Of a stretch of DNA of 64,000 bases, positions 9,551 through 63,603 are shown one piece after another. The stretch is taken from contig JBGSRW010000009.1 in the NCBI GenBank assembly GCA_041737355.1, positions 5,323 through 69,322 of the forward strand. The letters run 5' to 3'. Origin of the DNA: Patescibacteria group bacterium. Lineage in GTDB: Bacteria > Patescibacteriota > Patescibacteriia > XYB2-FULL-38-15. How positions within the stretch are numbered: position 1 is the stretch's first letter; every line of letters starts with the position of its first letter. The notes beneath the pieces were generated by a model, which ran no database searches, was not told the DNA's origin, and saw only the letters and a program-made list of their open reading frames with translations. The translations under genes and the position numbers were made by a program.

Positions 9551-9601
9551 GGGGAAAAAGAACGGGTGGGTTACGAACCGGTGGGCCCGATTGGCGGGAA
9601 A

Positions 9602-9808
9602 CTACGATGAGAGGTCGTCGGCCGGGTCCTCGAGCTGCCCGCCCGTGGCGAGCAGCCGGACGTGGTCGGCGAAGGTGTCCAGGTCGGCCGCGCGATCGCG
9701 GTCCGGACCGGAACGCCAGACGCCGTCATCCTGGACCATGTCGGCCGGGTCGGCGCCTTCGACCAGCGCTTCGTAGCGCCGGTCCATCTCACTCAGCACG
9801 TTTCTCAC
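9602..9808 (-). CDS. G+C-rich small acidic hypothetical protein (island I2), about 68 aa from GTG
   Basis: GGAGGTG RBS 5 nt before GTG; D/E-rich product VRNVLSEMDRRYEALVEGADPADM...; the ORF track gives a longer 101-aa version from an upstream GTG. Confidence 0.4.
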   Translation of the reverse strand: MRNVLSEMDRRYEALVEGADPADMVQDDGVWRSGPDRDRAADLDTFADHVRLLATGGQLEDPADDLSS

Positions 9809-10171
9809 TTTTCCACCTCCATCCCCTGATGGTCGCACTTCCTCCTTTTGGAATTTGGCGGCCATCCGGCTGGGCAAAATATTTTTGCTCAATCGGTCGG
9901 TCGTCACTTAATAATTTTAATCCTTCTTTCGGGAAAAAAGAAGGGGTTTCAAGACTTGCGTCCATCCACCCCCCCCTGCAGTTCAGTGCGCGCCCCGCGC
10001 TGCGGTTCTCAGAATTTTTTGTTCCTCCTCTTTCTTGCTGTGAGTTGCTGACTTGTCTCATCGCCGGCCTCATCTGCCGGCGTGCGCTTGCGGGGCCTCC
10101 CGCACAAAGTGCGGTACTCCGGTCCTTGGCCGGTTCTAGGCTGTAACCGGATTCCCCAGGTTCGGTGCTTT

Positions 10172-49827: not shown

Positions 49828-51285
49828 ATGGAAAACAACAAAACCAAACAGTTCACTGTAACAGCTAGAAAAAAAGAAAGCGCCAGACGTAAACTTGCCG
49901 TGACCGCCAAGGAAAAGGAGAGTGCCCGGCTTAAACTTGCCGTGACCGCCAAAGAAAAAGAAAGCGTCAGAAGTAAACTAGCAACAGTTGCCAAGCAACT
50001 TGCCGTGACCGCCAAAGAGGCGGAAAGCGTTAGACGCAAGTTAGCGGTGACCGCCAAGGAAAAGGAGGGCGTAAGGAACAAGCTGGTAATAACTGCAAAA
50101 AAACTCGCCACTACCGCCAAAGAAGCGGAAAGCGTCAGACGTAAACTCGCCGTGACCGCCAAAGAAAAAGAAAGTATAAGAAGCAAGCTGGCAATGGTCG
50201 CCAGACAACTTGCGACTACAGCCAAGGAAAGGGAAGACGCTAGACGCAGCTTAGTGGTGACTGCAAAAAATCTAAAGATAAAAGCCAAACAGCTCGCCAA
50301 GACTGCTGAGGAAAAAGAATATGTCAGGGGTAAATTAGAGGTGACAGCAAAGCAACTAGCAACTACAGCGGAAGAAAAAGAGGAAGTAAGAAGTAGATTA
50401 GCGGTAGTTGCCAAGAAGCTCGCCGCAACTGCCAAGGAAAAGGAAAACGTCAGACAAAAGTTAGCTGTAATCGCGAAGCAGCTGAAAGATAAAGCCATAC
50501 AACTCGCCGTGACCGCCAAGGAAATGGAATTGGCAAACAAAGAATTGAGGTCATTAGATTTGGCGAAAGATGAATTTGTTTCCATTGCTTCGCATCAGCT
50601 CCGCACGCCTCTTACTGCCCTAAAAGGATATGCAGGCATGCTTCTTGATGGAGATGCCGGACCAATAAACGATAAACAGCGCGAGTATCTTGTGGAAATG
50701 AAAAATGCCAATGACCGGATGATTGGTCTTATCACGGCGCTTCTTAACGTCTCAAGGGTTGATCTGGGTGTGTTCATCGTTGAACCAGAACGGCTAAGTC
50801 TTAAAAAGGTAGCAGAAGACGCGTTGAAAGATCTTGGCATGAAAATTGAGGGGAAAAAATTGCAGGTAGAGATGAATTTTGAAAACAATATTCCTCTAAT
50901 TAATGCGGATTTAAACATTGTTCGGATGATTTTTCAGAATTTGTTTACAAACGCGGTAAAATACACGCCAGCGGGAGGAAAAATTAATATCAATATAAAA
51001 AAGGACGGCCCTAATGTTCTTATCTCAGTCGCGGATACGGGTTATGGAATTCCCAGTAATGTGCAGCCAAAGATTTTTACAAAAATGTTTCGGGCCGATA
51101 ATGCGCGGATAAAGGATCCGGACGGTACCGGTCTTGGATTATATATTATAAAATCAACACTTGAAAAAACGGGTGGAAAAGTTTGGTTTGAATCGGTAGA
51201 AAATAAAGGGTCGACATTTTACGTTACTCTTCCGCTCGAGGGCATGAAGAAAAAAGAAGGAACAAAAAGATTAGAATTAAAATAA
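49828..51285 (+). CDS. Cytoplasmic sensor histidine kinase with N-terminal hendecad-repeat coiled coil
   Basis: About 230 aa of 11/21-residue repeats (KLAVTAKEKESVRR..) then a HisKA H-box (SHQLRTPLTAL) and HATPase_c (DTGYGIP, GTGLGLYI). Confidence 0.8.
   Translation: MENNKTKQFTVTARKKESARRKLAVTAKEKESARLKLAVTAKEKESVRSKLATVAKQLAVTAKEAESVRRKLAVTAKEKEGVRNKLVITAKKLATTAKEAESVRRKLAVTAKEKESIRSKLAMVARQLATTAKEREDARRSLVVTAKNLKIKAKQLAKTAEEKEYVRGKLEVTAKQLATTAEEKEEVRSRLAVVAKKLAATAKEKENVRQKLAVIAKQLKDKAIQLAVTAKEMELANKELRSLDLAKDEFVSIASHQLRTPLTALKGYAGMLLDGDAGPINDKQREYLVEMKNANDRMIGLITALLNVSRVDLGVFIVEPERLSLKKVAEDALKDLGMKIEGKKLQVEMNFENNIPLINADLNIVRMIFQNLFTNAVKYTPAGGKININIKKDGPNVLISVADTGYGIPSNVQPKIFTKMFRADNARIKDPDGTGLGLYIIKSTLEKTGGKVWFESVENKGSTFYVTLPLEGMKKKEGTKRLELK
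49870..50540 (+). repeat. Tandem 33/42/63-bp coding repeats
   Basis: Repeated ...cttgccgtgaccgccaaggaaaaggag... units encoding the hendecad repeats. Confidence 0.8.
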
Positions 51286-52149: not shown

Positions 52150-52875
52150 ATGTTTCATACAATCTGGCACGATTTTCTTTACACTCCGCTTTTGAATATT
52201 CTGATTTGGCTTTATAACGTCCCGGCCTTTGAAAATTTGGGCGTGGCGATTATTTATCTGACTATCGCGATCCGCATCGTTCTTCTCCCGTTTACCATTG
52301 TTTCCGAGCGGAGTAAAATTCTTTACGAAAAGTTAGAACAGAAAATAAAAAAAATAGAACAAGATTTTAAAAACGATCCTATTCAAAAGAAAGACATAAT
52401 CCGCAAGGTAATGAGAGAGCACCGGGTTAGTCCTTGGGCAAAAGTCATGGTGCTCGCGGTGCAGGCCCTTATTTTGGTGCTCTTGTACCAGGTTTTTATC
52501 GGCGGAATTAACGGCAAGCTTGGGGATCTCTATTCGTGGGTTGATCATCCCGATTTTATCAATACTAATTTTTTGGGATTTGATCTTGGTATCAGGAGTT
52601 TATTTTGGAGCGGTCTGGTGGGAGCGGTTCTTTTTCTCGAGATCTTTATTGATTATCGTAGCCGGCCGAGCGGTCTCGCTAAATCGGAGGTTGCCTACAT
52701 GATTTTTTTTCCGGCCGCCTGTTTTTTCCTTCTCTGGATCTTGCCTATGGCCAAATCGATCTTTATCCTGACCTCGCTGATTTTTTCGATGATAGTTATT
52801 GTGATTAGGCAAAGAATAAAAATCAGAATAAAAGTTGAAGACAACGCGATTAAGATCGAAAGAGTAAAGGCATAA
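52150..52875 (+). CDS. yidC: Membrane protein insertase, short YidC/Oxa1 family
   Basis: LYTPLLNIL...G.AIIYLTIAIRIVLLPF..S conserved TM2 region; 5 TM helices. Confidence 0.65.
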   Translation: MFHTIWHDFLYTPLLNILIWLYNVPAFENLGVAIIYLTIAIRIVLLPFTIVSERSKILYEKLEQKIKKIEQDFKNDPIQKKDIIRKVMREHRVSPWAKVMVLAVQALILVLLYQVFIGGINGKLGDLYSWVDHPDFINTNFLGFDLGIRSLFWSGLVGAVLFLEIFIDYRSRPSGLAKSEVAYMIFFPAACFFLLWILPMAKSIFILTSLIFSMIVIVIRQRIKIRIKVEDNAIKIERVKA

Positions 52876-52935
52876 AGAATAATAAGTAAAGTTTCCAAAC
52901 CGGCTGAAAAGCCGGTTTTTTGTTAGTATAAAAGG

Positions 52936-52964
52936 TTGACAAATTTTTTAGTTTTTGTTATAAA
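52936..52964 (+). promoter_or_regulatory. Promoter (TTGACAAA-17-TATAAA) that initiates at the tRNA-like element
   Basis: gTTGACAaattttttagtttttgttaTAAAAAc; predicted start site about 6-8 nt before 52980. Confidence 0.5.
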
Positions 52965-52979
52965 AACAACATGTAGACG

Positions 52980-53134
52980 GGGGCTGTAGCTCAAAGTCTG
53001 AAACAGCGTTTGGTAATGGCTTAGGTCATGACCAGCGCCGTAGACGAAGCAGAGCATTTGGGGGAAGGCGCGTGAGAGTAACTACTGGCGCCCGAACCAG
53101 AAGGTTGGAGGTTCAAGCCCTCCCAGCCCCGCCA
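52980..53134 (+). ncRNA. 155-nt tRNA-like element: perfect 7-bp acceptor stem, canonical T-arm and CCA, with about 80 extra structured nt where the D and anticodon arms should be
   Basis: 5' GGGGCTG pairs with 3' CAGCCCC-G-CCA; T-arm GGAGGTTCAAGCCCTCC; the interior contains hairpins (gctgt..acagc, ggtcatgacc, ctgg..ccag) but no standard cloverleaf. Confidence 0.5.
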
Positions 53135-53759
53135 GGTCTTAACAGCGAAGGGTTTTGCCCCGCTTTTGGCTAGAGCACCGCGAGGAGAAAGCGGAGTGTC
53201 GATGCCAAAAGAAAAGATGCTGGCGGGTTAAGCCGCTGGGGAGAGAGTCCGCTCCCGCTGTTAAGACCTCCTTCTCGGTTGCGGTTAAAAAGCGGAAGAC
53301 CTCCGCTCGGCCGCAACCAGATGGCTCGTGGCTAAGCCCAAGGGGGCTAAAATGGGCCGGTGGGTTTTTCTCGAGCCACCGAGAGAACCCCGGAAGCTTC
53401 CGCGAGCCAAGCTCGCGTTAGCATAAAGTTGCGATCGGTGAAAGCCTTGCACTGGCTACGGTTCTGGCTACCGTGCCGATCGCGACCTGCACTGTTCCTG
53501 GGGGCGGAGCTCGCCCCACATCCCTCCGATTGGGCCAGAACAGTGCAGTCTTCCAAGCCCGGCGGCGGTTCTTTTCGCTGAACCGTGAGATCGCCGCCGG
53601 GCTCCACTAAACGTACTTCCAAGTGCGGAAACCCCGCGCGAGGAAGTCGTGATGTGTGTGTTGGATTGGCCTCCCCCACACGCTTGCCGGACGAACGACA
53701 GTTGGTCGAAAGACCGATAAGTAGCCGAAAGGTGAATGTTGTTTCGTCCGGCATTTTTT
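53135..53759 (+). ncRNA. Candidate large ornate structured non-coding RNA, about 620 nt, co-transcribed immediately 3' of the tRNA-like element
   Basis: G+C-rich; no credible ORF in either strand; many long-range helices with perfect reverse complements (ggtcttaacagcg/cgctgttaagacc, gttgcgg/ccgcaac, gcgatcgg/ccgatcgc, ctgcactgttc/gaacagtgcag, cccggcggcg/cgccgccggg, ccggacgaa/ttcgtccgg), ending in a U-run. Confidence 0.5.
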
Positions 53760-53843
53760 GTCTCTGACCTTGACAAAATCACCTTTTAGAGTTAGTATTA
53801 GCCATAGGGTAGATTTAACTTTTGAATCTAAATAAAACAAAAT

Positions 53844-56218: not shown

Positions 56219-56572
56219 CTAGAAGTAACCCACACTAGCCCGTACGAGCGTGTACAAGTCTGCCTCCGGGCAGGGGTTTACGATTTCGTTCTCGGGCGGA
56301 TCCTTGGCAATACGCTTGAGAAAAACGACGTTGCAGTCTGCGTCCGCAATTTCCATCTTCCAAGAGGACGGCGTGAAACGCGCCACCCCCGACGGTTCCA
56401 ACGCGCGACTCCAACGACGCCAAGAAATCATGAACGCTTCGTCGGGTTCTACCCAACGCGCGGGTCTGCGTAGGAGATTGCCAACGACGTTTTGGCCGTC
56501 GCTGCGGTGCTCAATTATGATCCACCCGCCCAGATCCATGCGCCGAAGTCGGTCAACGTCATTCTTGTTCAT
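56219..56572 (-). CDS. G+C-rich hypothetical protein (island I6), 117 aa, inserted antisense inside the heat-shock operon
   Basis: Strong RBS GGGAGG 7 nt before ATG; upstream minus-strand promoter TTGACT-17-TTAGAT (alternative -10 TATTAG at 15-nt spacing) with an extended-10 TG; no known domain. Confidence 0.45.
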   Translation of the reverse strand: MNKNDVDRLRRMDLGGWIIIEHRSDGQNVVGNLLRRPARWVEPDEAFMISWRRWSRALEPSGVARFTPSSWKMEIADADCNVVFLKRIAKDPPENEIVNPCPEADLYTLVRASVGYF

Positions 56573-61098: not shown

Positions 61099-61179
61099 AT
61101 ATGGAGGCTTGTCTCGGAGTGAGACAGGTTTTTGTTCGAAAGCAGCTTCTCGGCCAAAAGCCGGGAAGGGAGGGAAAAA

Positions 61180-63603
61180 ATGAGGCTGTTCGTTCTTTTC
61201 ATTCTGGTACTTGGGGCGACCCAGGCATCGGAGGCCTTGGCGAGCGAGAGCTCACCTATTGGCGAAGCAGGGCAGGCCTACGAGGTCAGGCCCCGCGACC
61301 GGCTCGAGCGGGTGGCGGCGCATTTCGGCGTGACGATCGGAGAAATCATCTCCGCCAATCCGCCGCGCGCTTTCATCCGCGAATGCGTTGGCCAGCGCGA
61401 ACTTACGCTCCGTAACGGCGAGACGATCACTGTCTGCCGGCGGGTTCATTACGGACTTATCGCCGGAAAGACGCTCATCATCCCGGTTCCACGCTTGATT
61501 GTCGAATCGGAAAATGTCCGACTTGACGCGGAAAACACGGCTCTTGAGGCCGAACGCGACCAGGCCGAGAGAGAGAGCGATTTGTTGAAGCAAGAGCGCG
61601 ACGCTTTGCGCGCCGAACGCGATGAACTGAAGCGGACGGCCGAAGCAGCGCTTCGCGAGAAGGCCGAGATCCAGGGCCGCTACGACGAGCTGAAGCAAGC
61701 TTCTGCCGTGAGGCCGGAAAATAATGTGAACTCTCCGGCCGAAAGCAAGAGTTCCGCGCCTTCCGCGATGTATAATCGCGAGGCGTTCTTCTTCGTCATT
61801 CTGGCGATCATGGGATGCTCCCTGATTGTCATCGCACACAGGCATTTTACCCGTCCCGGATTGAAACTGAAGCGATCGGTCGAAGAACTCCGGCGCGAAC
61901 GGGCGAATTTTGAAATCGTGCGTTCCGCCTTGGCGGAAGAAGGCAAGGAACTTGCCGAGCGGCGGCGCCGGCTCGACGCCGAGGATCTGGAAATTCGCAC
62001 GCAGAGGTCGACGCTTGAGCGCGACCAGGAGAGTTTGCGGACTCAGCGCGATGAACTCGGCAAGTGGGAAGAGAGCTTGAAGGCAAGGGCAGCCGCCCCT
62101 GTGTCCGAGAAGCCGAAGACAGTCACTGCAATCGGCGTCCCGCCGATTTTCTCGCCCGTTCCGACTGGCGCGGAAAAAGCCAAGACCGAAGCGGGACTGC
62201 TGCAGGTCATGGTTGCCCGCGGGCGCCAACTCCTCGAAGAGGATTTCCGGACGCTTGCCGGACGCGAAGCAGCTTGCACGGCCCGTGAAAAGGCCATTGA
62301 GCGTCGGGTTGCGGCGCTTGATTCATTGCGGCAGGCCCTTGAAGACCGGGAGAAGAACCTTACCACAAAAGAACACGGGGTCGAAGAGTTGCGCAGGACC
62401 TTCAGCAGCGGGAAAGCCCGTTGCGACCTAACGGACATCGCCCAAACTGAACGGGAAGAGAATCTCGTTAAGGGTTTTGCCGATTTGACGGCTCAGAGAG
62501 ACCGTTTGGACAAGGAATTCGGCCAAAGGCAAATTGACCTTGACCGGCGTGCCACAGAGATCGACGGCAAGGTCCGGATGTACGACGAGGACATCGCTCC
62601 GGCGATCAAAAAGGCCCGGGAAGACCTCGCCGCCCGTGAGGCCGCTTTCGCCGAACGGGAGCGTGGGCTTGCGGAAACGGAAAGAAGCAACACGGCCCGT
62701 GCCGAAAAGCTTAGCGAAGACGAGCGCGCTTACGAACGCCGGATGCAGGAACTGAAGCAGACAGGCGACGACCTCGATCTGCGCGCTGAAAAGTTGGGCG
62801 AAGGCGAGCAGAAACTCAGCGAAGAACAGCTTGAGCTGAAGAACAACCGCGACGCCTTTGCCAACGAAGTCGACGCGGCTAAGGGTATTCTTACCCGGGC
62901 CAAGCGCAAGAAGGAAATCGTCGCCACGCTCGAAGAACGCGAAGCCGAAGTCGCTCGGCGCGAACGAGAATGTGAAGCGCGCGAAGGCACGCTTCAGTCC
63001 TGGTCGGAGCGGCTTAGCGAACGGGAACGAAAGGTTGTTCTTGCCGAGCTTCCGACAAGTGGGATACCCCACAGGCCGACACTGGCGCCGGCGTTTCCGC
63101 CTCTTCCGTTGCCCGGAGATATTACCCCTGGCACAAGCGCCGACGACGACAATCCTACGGTCACTTTCCAACCGCCGACGGACGAGGAAATTGATCCGAG
63201 GGCCGCGACCCACATTGAAATGAACCCCGGCCCGGCAATGGTAGTTGATTCTGTTGATATTGAGGGCGAAAGGGTAATCGGAACTTCCGAAGAACCGTCC
63301 GCCCCCGCAGCGGACTTGACGGTGCCGGACGGCTCGCTAACCTGCCGGCGCGAGGAGGACGGTCAGGAAGTTGATCTTGCCTCCGCTGAAGCACATATCG
63401 GAATCTGCCGGTCGCCGGCCGGAGCAGAGTCACCGCTCCGCGAAACCGGACCGCACATTCCGGTAGCGGCAGAGCCAATGCTGCACTCGGAAAGTTCTTT
63501 TTGGTGCAGCCTCTGCAAACGGGATATCCCTATGGATGACATGGATGCCCACCAGAAGCTGCATCAAGAGCAGGAAAACCACGGCCCGCTTGGCCAGGGA
63601 TAA
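61180..63603 (+). CDS. G+C-rich LysM-domain, membrane-spanning, long coiled-coil protein with C-terminal C2H2-type zinc-finger-like motif (island I7)
   Basis: RBS GGGAGGG; signal peptide; LysM (YEVRPRDRLERVAAHFGVTIGEIISANP); TM (FFFVILAIMGCSLIVIAH); about 400 aa of E/R/A-rich coiled coil; Pro-rich spacer; CSLCKRDIPMDDMDAHQKLH (C-x2-C-x12-H-x3-H). Confidence 0.5.
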   Translation: MRLFVLFILVLGATQASEALASESSPIGEAGQAYEVRPRDRLERVAAHFGVTIGEIISANPPRAFIRECVGQRELTLRNGETITVCRRVHYGLIAGKTLIIPVPRLIVESENVRLDAENTALEAERDQAERESDLLKQERDALRAERDELKRTAEAALREKAEIQGRYDELKQASAVRPENNVNSPAESKSSAPSAMYNREAFFFVILAIMGCSLIVIAHRHFTRPGLKLKRSVEELRRERANFEIVRSALAEEGKELAERRRRLDAEDLEIRTQRSTLERDQESLRTQRDELGKWEESLKARAAAPVSEKPKTVTAIGVPPIFSPVPTGAEKAKTEAGLLQVMVARGRQLLEEDFRTLAGREAACTAREKAIERRVAALDSLRQALEDREKNLTTKEHGVEELRRTFSSGKARCDLTDIAQTEREENLVKGFADLTAQRDRLDKEFGQRQIDLDRRATEIDGKVRMYDEDIAPAIKKAREDLAAREAAFAERERGLAETERSNTARAEKLSEDERAYERRMQELKQTGDDLDLRAEKLGEGEQKLSEEQLELKNNRDAFANEVDAAKGILTRAKRKKEIVATLEEREAEVARRERECEAREGTLQSWSERLSERERKVVLAELPTSGIPHRPTLAPAFPPLPLPGDITPGTSADDDNPTVTFQPPTDEEIDPRAATHIEMNPGPAMVVDSVDIEGERVIGTSEEPSAPAADLTVPDGSLTCRREEDGQEVDLASAEAHIGICRSPAGAESPLRETGPHIPVAAEPMLHSESSFWCSLCKRDIPMDDMDAHQKLHQEQENHGPLGQG

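What the first reader, a model, noticed from the sequence alone, without database searches (positions are those of the whole stretch)
52936..53759. tRNA-like element fused to a roughly 620-nt ornate structured RNA downstream of yidC
Seen in the sequence: a promoter (TTGACA-17-TATAAA) fires directly into a 155-nt element that has a perfect 7-bp tRNA acceptor stem, a canonical T-arm (GGAGG-TTCAAGC-CCTCC), a discriminator and an encoded CCA. About 80 nt of extra hairpins sit where the D and anticodon arms would be, so it is not a standard cloverleaf. Immediately after the CCA comes roughly 620 nt of G+C-rich sequence with no credible ORF on either strand and at least six perfect long-range reverse-complement pairs of 7-13 nt. 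It ends in a closing helix (ccggacgaa/ttcgtccgg) plus a U-run. Inference: RNase P or RNase Z processing at the tRNA-like element would define the 5' end of the large RNA (the MALAT1/mascRNA logic in reverse). Established knowledge: large ornate bacterial RNAs such as GOLLD and ROOL are frequently tRNA-adjacent. The size (155 nt before the CCA) argues against a canonical tmRNA. I could not match RNase P, tmRNA, SRP, 6S or group I/II consensus strings by eye.
Basis: partly seen in the sequence, partly recalled or inferred. Interest (0 to 1): 0.8.

Follow-up and report, generated by a model that had tools for sequence, protein, structure and literature searches.

The report
tRNA-headed modular RNA gene in Falkowbacteria
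Between two housekeeping genes, one small group of ultra-small groundwater bacteria carries a separately transcribed, heavily folded, non-coding RNA of about 780 bases that starts with a crippled tRNA and matches no catalogued RNA family; it is real, but its job is unknown.

Summary
Window 52936-53759 is a self-contained transcription unit: TTGACA-17-TATAAA promoter, a 155-nt tRNA-like element (Rfam tRNA 38.2 bits) and 620 nt of 58-63% G+C RNA. The 620 nt fold far better than shuffles (z = -14) and end in a hairpin plus U-run. No ORF in it has a homologue or a Pfam domain. Beyond the tRNA hit, no Rfam 15 family matches, even at E <= 10.

Related loci add four points.
- The unit is an insertion. 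Most relatives have yidC and the SPFH gene 27-200 nt apart. Only one Ca. Falkowbacteria-like subclade (18 loci) carries 680-1820 nt here, always with this promoter type and a terminator.
- The content is a mosaic of separately closed helical domains, and no domain is universal.
- Several helices keep pairing through compensatory changes.
- The tRNA part descends from a normal-sized tRNA-like gene. Its acceptor, D and T arms are kept, while the anticodon arm varies freely and takes hairpin insertions, so it does not decode.

Best reading: a new, lineage-restricted, modular structured RNA whose tRNA-derived head serves as an RNase P handle, stabiliser or scaffold. The resemblance to GOLLD/ROOL is by analogy only. 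Function is unknown.

The parts
52897..52918 (+). Intrinsic terminator of yidC (left boundary of the inserted unit)
   Evidence: 9-bp stem followed by a T-run. Every homologous locus has a yidC terminator before the unit.
52936..52964 (+). Promoter of the RNA unit: TTGACA, 17 nt, TATAAA. The predicted start is about 52971, which leaves a leader of about 9 nt.
   Evidence: Read from the sequence. The same TTGACA-17-TATAAA(G) arrangement precedes the unit in L001-L004, L007, L010-L012, L118 and L119.
52980..53134 (+). tRNA-derived, non-decoding cloverleaf with encoded CCA. Acceptor 52980-86 / 53124-30, D stem 52989-92 / 53052-55, anticodon stem 53057-61 / 53097-101, T arm 53107-23, discriminator G53131, CCA 53132-34.
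   Evidence: Rfam tRNA 38.2 bits. The MFE is a cloverleaf. ARAGORN is silent. Homologues score 40-62 bits.
52993..53051 (+). Expanded D loop: a stacked hairpin of about 50 nt inserted where a normal D loop has 8-11 nt. The canonical D-loop G18-G19 is replaced.
   Evidence: The closest relative L118 has a normal D loop, AGCGGGA. No homologue of this insertion was found.
53062..53096 (+). 35-nt 'anticodon loop' containing a GGCGC/GCGCC hairpin. No 7-nt loop and no anticodon are present.
   Evidence: L012 and L119 carry unrelated 30-nt hairpin insertions at the same place.
53135..53268 (+). Domain A: a multi-helix junction closed by a 13-bp helix (53135-47 / 53256-68) that starts directly after the CCA.
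   Evidence: Shared with L001, L007 and L012. 98.8% of cells are paired. 6 pairs have changes on both sides, against 2.7 +/- 1.0 in shuffles and 0-1 in slid controls.
53273..53321 (+). Hairpin B (10-bp plus 6-bp stems, loop AAGACC)
   Evidence: Partly shared with L007 and L008.
53323..53391 (+). Domain C: two hairpins (53323-58 and 53362-91)
   Evidence: Shared with L007 and L004.
53392..53554 (+). D-E-F junction domain, closed by GGAAG/CUUCC (53392-95 / 53551-54). It holds hairpin D (53396-53422), hairpin E (53428-86) and hairpin F (53487-53548).
   Evidence: D is found in 14 of 18 units, with covariation. Helix F has changes on both sides in L008 and L004. The closing helix covaries as CAAAG/CUUUG in L004 (read).
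53556..53603 (+). Hairpin G (15-bp GC-rich stem)
   Evidence: (I2). Shared with L003, L008, L011 and L012. L012 has the compensatory GGUGGCGG/CCGCCACC.
53611..53653 (+). Hairpin H with a conserved 3' tail (GUACUUCC..GGAAGUCGUGAU), the most conserved module
   Evidence: 85-95% identical in 10 units. G-C to A-U covariation in L008. The covariance model finds exactly one copy per unit and none elsewhere in 517 kb.
53654..53683 (+). Hairpin I
   Evidence: Only L011 has a similar hairpin.
53685..53759 (+). Domain J: a three-way junction with two GAAA-capped hairpins, closed by UGCCGGACGAA/UUCGUCCGGCA, then six U. It acts as the intrinsic terminator.
   Evidence: (I5). 85-89% identical in L001, L010, L118 and L121. 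Other units use a different terminator hairpin at this position.
53770..53798 (+). Promoter of the SPFH/Band 7 gene (right boundary)
   Evidence: The same promoter follows the yidC terminator directly in the unoccupied site of L006.

Best explanation
The region is a stand-alone gene for a non-coding RNA. It was inserted between yidC and the SPFH gene in one subclade of Ca. Falkowbacteria-like Patescibacteria.

Shown:
- A near-consensus promoter and an intrinsic terminator bracket about 780 nt.
- The first 155 nt are a tRNA gene derivative. It keeps the acceptor stem, D stem, T arm and CCA but has lost the anticodon loop, and it has taken hairpin insertions in the D and anticodon loops.
- The remaining 620 nt are a chain of separately closed helical domains (A, B, C, D-E-F, G, H, I, J), capped largely by UUCG and GNRA loops.
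- Base pairing in these domains is maintained by compensatory substitutions.
- Across relatives the domains behave as cassettes: they are present, absent, duplicated or replaced.

Inferred mechanism:
- The transcript is made at a high level.
- RNase P recognises the acceptor/T-arm minihelix and removes the leader of about 9 nt at G52980.
- The tRNA fold, with its CCA stacked directly on the 13-bp closing helix of domain A, then protects the 5' end and/or recruits tRNA-binding factors.
- It may or may not be cut away from the body.
- The body acts as a stable, modular scaffold, either as a ribonucleoprotein or as RNA only, rather than as a base-pairing regulator or a ribozyme with a fixed core.

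Its cellular role is not known.
For: Transcription unit:
- Promoter and terminator are in place, and both are conserved in all 18 occupied loci.

Structure:
- z = -14.3, and the + strand folds better than the - strand.
- Perfect inverted repeats of 11-14 nt.
- Covariation in domain A: 6 pairs with changes on both sides, 0 of 500 shuffles reach this, slid controls give 0-1.
- Covariation also in D, H and F.
- Hairpin loops across the units are dominated by UUCG, GAAA and GCAA.

Non-coding:
- The longest ORF has only itself as a match among 5.8 billion proteins.
- Four ORFs have no Pfam hit.
- Single-base gaps occur in the alignments.

tRNA origin:
- Rfam tRNA hits of 38-62 bits in 10 units.
- The anticodon arm ranges from a 4-bp stem with a 7-nt loop to a 6-bp stem, or carries insertions of about 30 nt, while the acceptor, D and T arms stay intact.
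- The junction acceptor-N-CCA/CUA-GGUCUU is conserved.

Insertion and mosaicism:
- yidC-SPFH gaps are 27-334 nt in about 70 relatives and 680-1820 nt in the subclade.
- Module table.
- H occurs once per unit and nowhere else in 517 kb.

Not a known family: Rfam at E <= 10 on four versions of the unit and at gathering thresholds on 17 loci.
Against: - There is no expression or end-mapping data, so RNase P cleavage, the fate of the tRNA-like part and transcript abundance are all inferred.
- No domain is universal. The window and L008 lack domain X, which 12 of 18 units have, and L005 has X alone. This is unusual for an RNA with a single conserved function and also fits relaxed constraint.
- The distribution is very narrow.
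- The window's own D-loop and anticodon-loop insertions have no homologue, so their structure rests on one sequence (z = -2.5 for the tRNA-like part).
- The covariation evidence comes from only 4-7 closely related sequences per module.
Confidence: 0.55

Rival explanations
1. The transcript is a tRNA-punctuated polycistronic precursor. Each closed domain (A, D-E-F, G, H, J and so on) would be an independent small RNA, released by RNase P or RNase Z at the tRNA-like element and by other endonucleases between domains. This would resemble tRNA-snoRNA dicistrons or mitochondrial tRNA punctuation.
For: - The domains are individually closed by their own helices and are joined by short A-rich linkers.
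- They occur in different combinations and orders in different genomes.
- In L007, L012 and L119 the tRNA-like element lies in the middle of the transcript, and L003 has two in tandem.
Against: - There is only one tRNA-like element per unit in most cases, and none in 8 of 18 units, so most domain boundaries have no punctuation mark.
- The CCA abuts a stable helix with no single-stranded trailer.
- A covarying closing helix (53392-95 / 53551-54) ties D, E and F into one larger fold.
Confidence: 0.2
2. The region is a decaying leftover. A tRNA gene, or a cargo of a mobile element or phage consisting of a tRNA plus a large RNA, landed between yidC and the SPFH gene. It is now eroding by deletions and insertions and has no present function for the cell.
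For: - The site is empty in most relatives.
- Content is a mosaic with no universal core.
- G+C is far above the host's, and the same window has other G+C-rich islands that look foreign.
- Two relatives carry stop-reading anticodons, UCA in L003 and UUA in L118, as phage suppressor tRNAs do.
- GOLLD/ROOL are phage-borne and lie next to tRNAs (PMC12286853).
Against: - The promoter and terminator are retained in all 18 units.
- Helices are maintained by compensatory changes.
- Stable tetraloops are enriched.
- There are no phage or mobile-element genes nearby, no flanking repeats, and no match in phage records, plasmid records or IMG/VR.
Confidence: 0.15
3. It is a functional tRNA gene interrupted by introns, as described for group I introns in Patescibacteria tRNA genes, and the downstream RNA is unrelated.
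For: - Insertions sit in the anticodon loop in the window, L012 and L119.
- Patescibacteria do carry group I introns in tRNA anticodon loops (PMC13011429).
Against: - The insertions are 30-56 nt, too short for a group I intron.
- No Intron_gpI match even at E <= 10.
- Removing the hairpin leaves no 7-nt loop with U33.
- One insertion is in the D loop.
- Anticodon-arm lengths differ among relatives.
Confidence: 0.03
4. It is a divergent member of a known RNA family (RNase P RNA, tmRNA, SRP RNA, 6S, GOLLD, ROOL, OLE, HEARO) that Rfam models fail to recognise.
For: - Size and ornateness are comparable.
- tRNA adjacency resembles GOLLD/ROOL.
Against: - Apart from the tRNA hit on the tRNA-like element, no family scores at E <= 10 on four different versions of the unit, apart from chance-level hits.
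- ARAGORN finds no tmRNA.
- The acceptor has G3-C70, not the G3-U70 of tmRNA.
- An essential RNA would not be missing from sister genomes at this site, nor lack a constant core.
Confidence: 0.04
5. It is a protein-coding region, for example the 135-aa ORF on the - strand at 53347-53754.
For: ORFs of 73-135 aa exist on both strands, and a gene caller did call the 135-aa ORF in public data.
Against: - The only match among 5.8 billion proteins is the ORF itself.
- No Pfam hit.
- Homologous DNA differs by single-base gaps and whole-module gains and losses.
- Long ORFs are expected by chance at 60% G+C.
Confidence: 0.01

Closest known systems
GOLLD RNA (and ROOL RNA)
   Same: - Large (over 600 nt), highly structured bacterial non-coding RNA of unknown function.
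- Lies next to, or is covalently linked with, tRNAs.
- GOLLD has a variable, modular 5' region, and tRNAs sometimes sit in its linker (PMC12286853).
   Different: - No match to either Rfam model even at E <= 10.
- No phage context and no phage or IMG/VR homologues.
- No universally conserved half.
- The linked tRNA is non-decoding and carries insertions.
- Found in Patescibacteria.
tRNA-linked processed RNAs: E. coli rtT RNA (downstream of tyrT), the 3'ETS-leuZ sponge, MALAT1-mascRNA, plant tRNA-snoRNA dicistrons (from my own knowledge)
   Same: A tRNA or tRNA-like fold is co-transcribed with another functional RNA, so tRNA-processing enzymes could define an RNA end.
   Different: - Here the tRNA part is itself defective in decoding.
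- It sits at the 5' end of the transcript.
- It is fused without a spacer to a 13-bp helix.
- The partner RNA is 620 nt and multi-domain.
- No sequence relation exists to any of these RNAs.
tRNA-like domains inside larger RNAs: tmRNA TLD, bacterial Y RNA YrlA, viral 3' TLS (from my own knowledge)
   Same: Acceptor and T-arm mimicry is kept while the anticodon arm is replaced by other structure. The tRNA-like module probably acts as a protein or enzyme handle.
   Different: - A standard 5'/3' acceptor with D and anticodon stems is still present.
- No tag ORF, no G3-U70, and no neighbouring Ro/Rsr gene.
- Insertions lie in the loops rather than replacing the arm.
Group I introns in Patescibacteria tRNA genes (PMC13011429)
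   Same: Same phylum, and the tRNA genes are disrupted within the anticodon loop.
   Different: - Insertions of 30-56 nt without a group I core (no Rfam hit).
- Also present in the D loop.
- No plausible mature anticodon loop remains.

Membership tests
tRNA (RF00005) | Score at or above Rfam's gathering threshold, with a 7-bp acceptor stem, T arm and T loop | tested here: met
   38.2 bits against a threshold of 29. Acceptor 52980-86 / 53124-30. T arm GGAGG-UUCAAGC-CCUCC.
tRNA (RF00005) | 7-nt anticodon loop with U33 and a readable anticodon | tested here: not met
   The loop is 35 nt and contains an internal hairpin. ARAGORN makes no call.
tRNA (RF00005) | D loop of 8-11 nt carrying G18-G19 for the elbow contact | tested here: not met
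   The D loop is 59 nt (52993-53051), with a stacked hairpin in place of the GG.
tmRNA | Detected by ARAGORN or Rfam, with G3-U70, a tag reading frame and pseudoknots between the acceptor strands | tested here: not met
   No tmRNA call and no Rfam hit. The pair is G3-C70. Only 117 nt lie between the acceptor strands.
GOLLD / ROOL | Match to the family covariance model (conserved core) | tested here: not met
   No hit at E <= 10 on the window region or on L002, L004 and L005.
GOLLD / ROOL | Phage or prophage context near tRNA islands | tested here: not met
   Neighbours are yidC, an SPFH gene, hrcA, grpE and dnaK. No match in phage records or IMG/VR. A tRNA-like element is adjacent, but there is no tRNA island.
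RNase P RNA (bacterial A/B) | Conserved regions CR-I to CR-V, the P4 pseudoknot, and a model match | tested here: not met
   No RNaseP_bact hit at E <= 10. There is only a chance-level 10.2-bit RNaseP_arch hit in L004.
Group I intron-containing tRNA | Catalytic core of about 200 nt or more recognised by Intron_gpI, and exons that join to a normal tRNA | tested here: not met
   The insertions are 35 and about 50 nt, with no Intron_gpI hit.
Dispersed palindromic repeats / MITEs (REP, BIME, Correia-type) | Many copies scattered through the genome | tested here: not met
   No second copy of any module in the 64-kb window or in the flanks of the loci. The model for module H finds one copy per unit in 517 kb. 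Whole genomes were not searched.
Protein-coding gene | Conserved reading frame with homologues | tested here: not met

The most novel reading that the evidence does not exclude
The locus may encode a fast-evolving 'display' RNA. A tRNA scaffold and other stable helices would present exchangeable hairpins that mimic loops of the translation machinery and act as decoys or sponges in some conflict, for example against an RNA-targeting toxin or modifying enzyme, or against a phage factor.

Hints:
- Unrelated hairpins have been inserted at the same spot (the anticodon loop) in the window, L012 and L119.
- L012 (in the tRNA scaffold) and L003 (in another hairpin) both display GCGG-AUUAGAUAC-CCGC. 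This is identical to what I recall as the 790 loop of 16S rRNA helix 24; the 13-base core matches the E. coli 16S sequence fetched.
- L122 and L123 display a T-arm copy inside domain X.
- Cassette turnover between close relatives looks like diversifying selection.
Probability: 0.07. Interest if true: 0.85.

Novelty: new variant of a known kind. Interest (0 to 1): 0.58.

Why it matters
Patescibacteria have tiny genomes and few known regulatory RNAs. A strongly promoted RNA of 0.4-1.5 kb that they maintain and keep remodelling is therefore unlikely to be trivial.

The locus would add a large structured RNA class outside the Firmicutes and phage world of GOLLD, ROOL and OLE. It is also a natural example of a tRNA used as a scaffold for inserted hairpins, the trick used in the laboratory to stabilise recombinant RNAs.

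It offers a small, tractable system of about 20 natural variants with domains swapped in and out. That system can be used to ask how large RNAs evolve by modules.

If the RNA proves non-functional, it still warns that extreme folding z-scores and G+C islands in AT-rich genomes can mark decaying RNA cargo.

Tried and rejected
- **Rfam.** Gathering mode on the window and 17 loci, and E <= 10 mode on four versions of the unit.
- **ARAGORN, including tmRNA mode.** It is silent on the window element and calls odd tRNAs in relatives.
- **Phage or plasmid origin.** A 15-mer scan of IMG/VR gave 30 hits, none of which extends beyond the 15-mer. BLAST against phage and plasmid records found nothing.
- **Coding rival.** Rejected by a protein search and Pfam.
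- **rRNA-fragment or rRNA-mimic idea.** I compared all units with E. coli 16S, 23S and 5S. There were 41 shared 10-mers against 45 +/- 7 in shuffles, and 13-mers arise in about half of the shuffles. The 790-loop identity is therefore not statistically supported and is kept only as an observation.
- **Domain X of relatives as a cobalamin riboswitch, RNase P, SRP or tmRNA.** These were motif resemblances seen by eye, with no model support.
- **Dispersed-repeat or MITE idea.** Rejected, because each module is single copy.
- **Literature.** I found no description of this RNA.
- **Wider distribution.** The distribution outside the yidC-SPFH site is therefore unknown.
Full report
**1. What is at the coordinates**

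The window comes from a Ca. Falkowbacteria-like member of the Patescibacteria (CPR). This rests on the record titles of the closest syntenic loci.

- yidC ends at 52875 and has its own terminator at 52897-52918.
- A promoter follows: TTGACA (52936-41), 17 nt, TATAAA (52959-64). The scanner did not list it because it requires T at the last position of the -10.
- From about 52971 a leader of roughly 9 nt runs into a 155-nt element (52980-53134). Rfam aligns this element end to end with the tRNA model at 38.2 bits, against a threshold of 29.
- Its acceptor stem (7 bp), D stem, anticodon stem and T arm with the UUCAAGC loop are all in place. The discriminator is G53131 and CCA is encoded at 53132-34.
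- The D loop is 59 nt and the 'anticodon loop' is 35 nt, and each folds into an extra hairpin. ARAGORN does not call it.
- The next 620 nt are 58-63% G+C in a genome of about 42%.
- They fold to -314.6 kcal/mol, against -240 +/- 5 for shuffles (z = -14.3). The + strand folds better than the - strand.
- They contain perfect inverted repeats of 11-14 nt and end in UGCCGGACGAA...UUCGUCCGGCA plus six U (53685-53759).
- A separate promoter (53770-98) then drives the SPFH/Band 7 gene.

The one correction is that the tRNA-like element is a cloverleaf with two expanded loops.

**2. It is not coding and not a catalogued RNA**

- The longest ORF (135 aa, - strand) matches only itself among 5.8 billion proteins.
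- Four ORFs on both strands have no Pfam domain.
- Homologous DNA differs by single-base gaps.
- Rfam 15 returns nothing but tRNA. This held at gathering thresholds on the window and 17 related loci and at E <= 10 on four versions of the unit.
- There is no RNase P, tmRNA, SRP, 6S, GOLLD, ROOL, OLE, HEARO or group I/II intron hit.
- No match exists in phage records, plasmid records or IMG/VR.

**3. Related loci: an insertion restricted to one subclade**

I anchored searches on YidC and on the very conserved SPFH protein and collected more than 90 syntenic loci.

- In about 70 of them, from many Patescibacteria, yidC and the SPFH gene are 27-334 nt apart.
- Some close relatives also have the site empty: L006, L014, L023 and L127. 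In L006 the yidC terminator is followed directly by the SPFH promoter.
- Only the subclade around the window has 680-1820 nt here (18 distinct loci). In these loci SPFH is mostly at least 95% identical and YidC about 75-90%.
- In nearly all the occupied loci where both ends could be read, the insert has the same layout. A TTGACA-17-TATAAA(G) promoter comes first, then G+C-rich non-coding sequence, then a hairpin with a U-run of one of two types. In L008 the -35 reads TTGACG instead.

**4. The content is a mosaic of closed domains**

All-against-all comparison shows shared blocks at 75-95% identity, in different combinations.

| Module | Units carrying it (of 18) |
|---|---|
| tRNA-like element | 10 |
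| Domain A | 4 |
| Hairpin D | 14 |
| Hairpin H | 10 |
| Domain X (about 230 nt) | 12, duplicated in L004 |
| Terminator type J | 5 (window, L001, L010, L118, L121) |
| Second terminator type | 8 |

- The window and L008 lack domain X, and L005 has only X. No block is universal.
- A covariance model of H finds exactly one copy per unit and nothing else in 517 kb, which includes the rest of the window. The blocks are therefore not dispersed repeats.

**5. The helices are under selection**

- Domain A (window, L001, L007, L012): 98.8% of cells are paired. Six pairs have changes on both sides, against 2.7 +/- 1.0 in shuffles (0 of 500 reach six) and 0-1 when partners are slid.
- Hairpin D: CGCGAGC/GCUCGCG becomes CGCGAAC/GUUCGCG in L010 and CGCGAGU/ACUCGCG in L008.
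- Hairpin H: G-C becomes A-U in L008.
- Helix F: U-A becomes C-G and G-C becomes A-U in L008, and A-U becomes G-C in L004.
- The 4-5-bp helix that closes D, E and F over about 160 nt reads GGAAG/CUUCC in the window and CAAAG/CUUUG in L004 (read).
- Hairpin loops across all units are dominated by UUCG (13), GAAA (9) and GCAA (6).

These samples are small and closely related, but the signal is consistent across modules.

**6. History of the tRNA-like head**

Relatives carry normal-sized versions that score 53-62 bits.

- L118, the closest by YidC at 90%, shares the window's 3' acceptor strand, discriminator and CCA and has a near-identical T arm. It has a normal D loop, and its anticodon arm is two nucleotides short, with loop UUUUAAG.
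- L003 has two in tandem. One has a 6-bp anticodon stem and anticodon UCA, and the other has a 6-nt loop.
- L008 has a regular CUC loop, L007 a 6-nt loop and L125 an 8-nt loop.
- L012 and L119 have unrelated 30-nt hairpins inserted in the loop.

The acceptor, D and T arms are thus conserved while the anticodon arm drifts and accepts insertions, so the element is not used for decoding. The window version is the most derived, with two insertions and a score of 38 bits.

In six units the 3' end (discriminator plus CCA, CUA or CC) is fused without a spacer to a helix that begins GGUCUU. In the window the A of the CCA is already the first base of a 14-nt perfect inverted repeat.

Three of the six genuine tRNA genes in the window encode CCA and three do not. 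Both maturation routes should therefore exist in this organism (inference).

**7. How it most likely works**

Shown:
- It is a separately promoted and terminated RNA gene.
- It has a tRNA-derived, non-decoding head.
- It has a multi-domain body with selected helices.
- Its domains turn over as cassettes.

Inferred:
- RNase P, which needs only the acceptor/T-arm minihelix (established knowledge), trims the leader at G52980.
- The tRNA fold stabilises the 5' end and may recruit tRNA-binding proteins.
- The spacer-free junction with domain A favours coaxial stacking and retention. It does not exclude cleavage at 53131-53135.
- The body's modularity, stable tetraloops and lack of a fixed core fit a scaffold or sequestering role better than a ribozyme or a trans-acting antisense RNA.

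My confidence estimates:

| Claim | Probability |
|---|---|
| Real structured non-coding RNA | about 0.9 |
| tRNA-derived and non-decoding | about 0.85 |
| 5' trimming by RNase P | about 0.6 |
| Physical separation of head and body | about 0.4 |
| Any specific cellular role | low |

**8. Rivals**

- A tRNA-punctuated cluster of independent small RNAs is the main alternative. It is supported by the closed domains and by tRNA-like elements lying mid-transcript in relatives. It is weakened by the absence of punctuation at most boundaries and by the D-E-F closing helix.
- A decaying cargo of foreign origin fits several facts: the empty sites, the mosaicism, the G+C excess, other foreign-looking G+C islands in the window and the stop-reading anticodons in L003 and L118. 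It fits poorly with the conserved promoter and terminator and with the compensatory changes.
- An intron-containing tRNA, a hidden member of a known family, and a protein-coding region are each contradicted by direct tests.

**9. Comparison with known systems**

The closest analogy is GOLLD. It is large, lies next to tRNAs, has a variable modular 5' region and sometimes has tRNAs in its linker (PMC12286853). Membership fails on the model match and on the phage context.

Other analogies are tRNA-linked processed RNAs (rtT, 3'ETS-leuZ, MALAT1-mascRNA) and tRNA-like domains within larger RNAs (tmRNA, YrlA, viral TLS). These comparisons rest on my own knowledge and are mechanistic only.

I rate the finding a new variant of a known kind, namely large structured bacterial RNAs associated with tRNAs. 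Its unusual traits are the tRNA used as an insertion-bearing scaffold and the cassette-like evolution.

**10. Verdict**

The feature is real and uncatalogued, narrowly distributed, and of unknown function. Interest is about 0.58. The most novel reading not excluded is a fast-evolving display or decoy RNA (section 7 of the evidence does not bear on it). I give it about 7%, because the rRNA-loop identity that suggested it is not significant against shuffles.

Noticed in passing
L012 2271-2283 (unit position 395-407, inside the tRNA-like anticodon arm) and L003 7768-7780 (unit position 1127-1139): Both loci carry the hairpin GCGG-AUUAGAUAC-CCGC. Its 13-base core, GGAUUAGAUACCC, equals E. coli 16S rRNA positions 785-797, which I recall as the universal '790 loop' of helix 24. 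It is displayed once in the tRNA scaffold and once in a hairpin of domain X. A 13-mer match to rRNA arises in about half of the shuffles, so the identity is unproven.
   Followed up: partly
L003 6908-6982 and L118 1098-1170: The tRNA-like elements in these homologous units have well-formed 7-nt loops with stop-reading anticodons: UCA (ARAGORN 'SeC') and UUA (ARAGORN 'tRNA-Stop'). Their anticodon stems are abnormal, at 6 bp and 4 bp. They could be suppressor-type tRNAs of phage origin, or simply drift.
   Followed up: partly
Relatives only, for example L004 7432-7690, L010, L001, L002 and L005 (absent from the window): An uncatalogued domain 'X' of about 230 nt is present in 12 of 18 units and duplicated in L004. 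It contains the motifs ..CAGGnGGAACCYUGC.., ..GGGGCGGCACAAUCGG.., ..CGGUUCCGGGCC.. and ..GCCUGCKGUGUCGC. Rfam has no match at E <= 10. L122 and L123 carry a T-arm-like hairpin (CCGGGUUCGAUUCCCGG) inside it.
   Followed up: partly
window 56219-56572 (- strand): A G+C-rich island (0.57) lies between the small heat-shock protein gene and dnaK. It holds a 117-aa ORF with a Shine-Dalgarno-like GGAGG upstream. The ORF has no Pfam domain. It was called as a gene on the matching Logan contig. It looks like a foreign insertion in the heat-shock cluster.
   Followed up: partly
window 9600-9810 (- strand) and 1200-1600: These are further short G+C-rich islands (0.58-0.61) in the 42% G+C genome. The first appears to hold a small ORF preceded by GGAGG. 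Neither was analysed.
   Followed up: no
window 61132-63603 (+ strand): A 2.4-kb block of 60% G+C encodes an 823-aa protein rich in coiled-coil and charged repeats. Pfam gives only a sub-threshold LysM hit. Long antisense ORFs lie opposite it. It is compositionally foreign to the genome.
   Followed up: partly
window 49828-51285 (+ strand): This histidine-kinase-like ORF has an N-terminal half built of many imperfect repeats (..LAVTAKEKESxRxK..). A 288-aa antisense ORF mirrors the repeats.
   Followed up: no
window 53392-53401: GGAAGCUUCC is a perfect 10-nt palindrome at the 5' edge of hairpin D. AAGCUU is kept in most units. It could pair in cis (GGAAG with CUUCC at 53550-54) or mediate dimerisation. 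This was not tested.
   Followed up: no
L001 7410-7800, L004 8060-8190, L007 3770-3900, L011 1680-1790: In several relatives, further short inverted-repeat elements lie between the RNA terminator and the SPFH promoter, for example TTGACCCCGTAGTAGAATTTC ... GAAATTTCACTACGGGG. The window lacks them.
   Followed up: no
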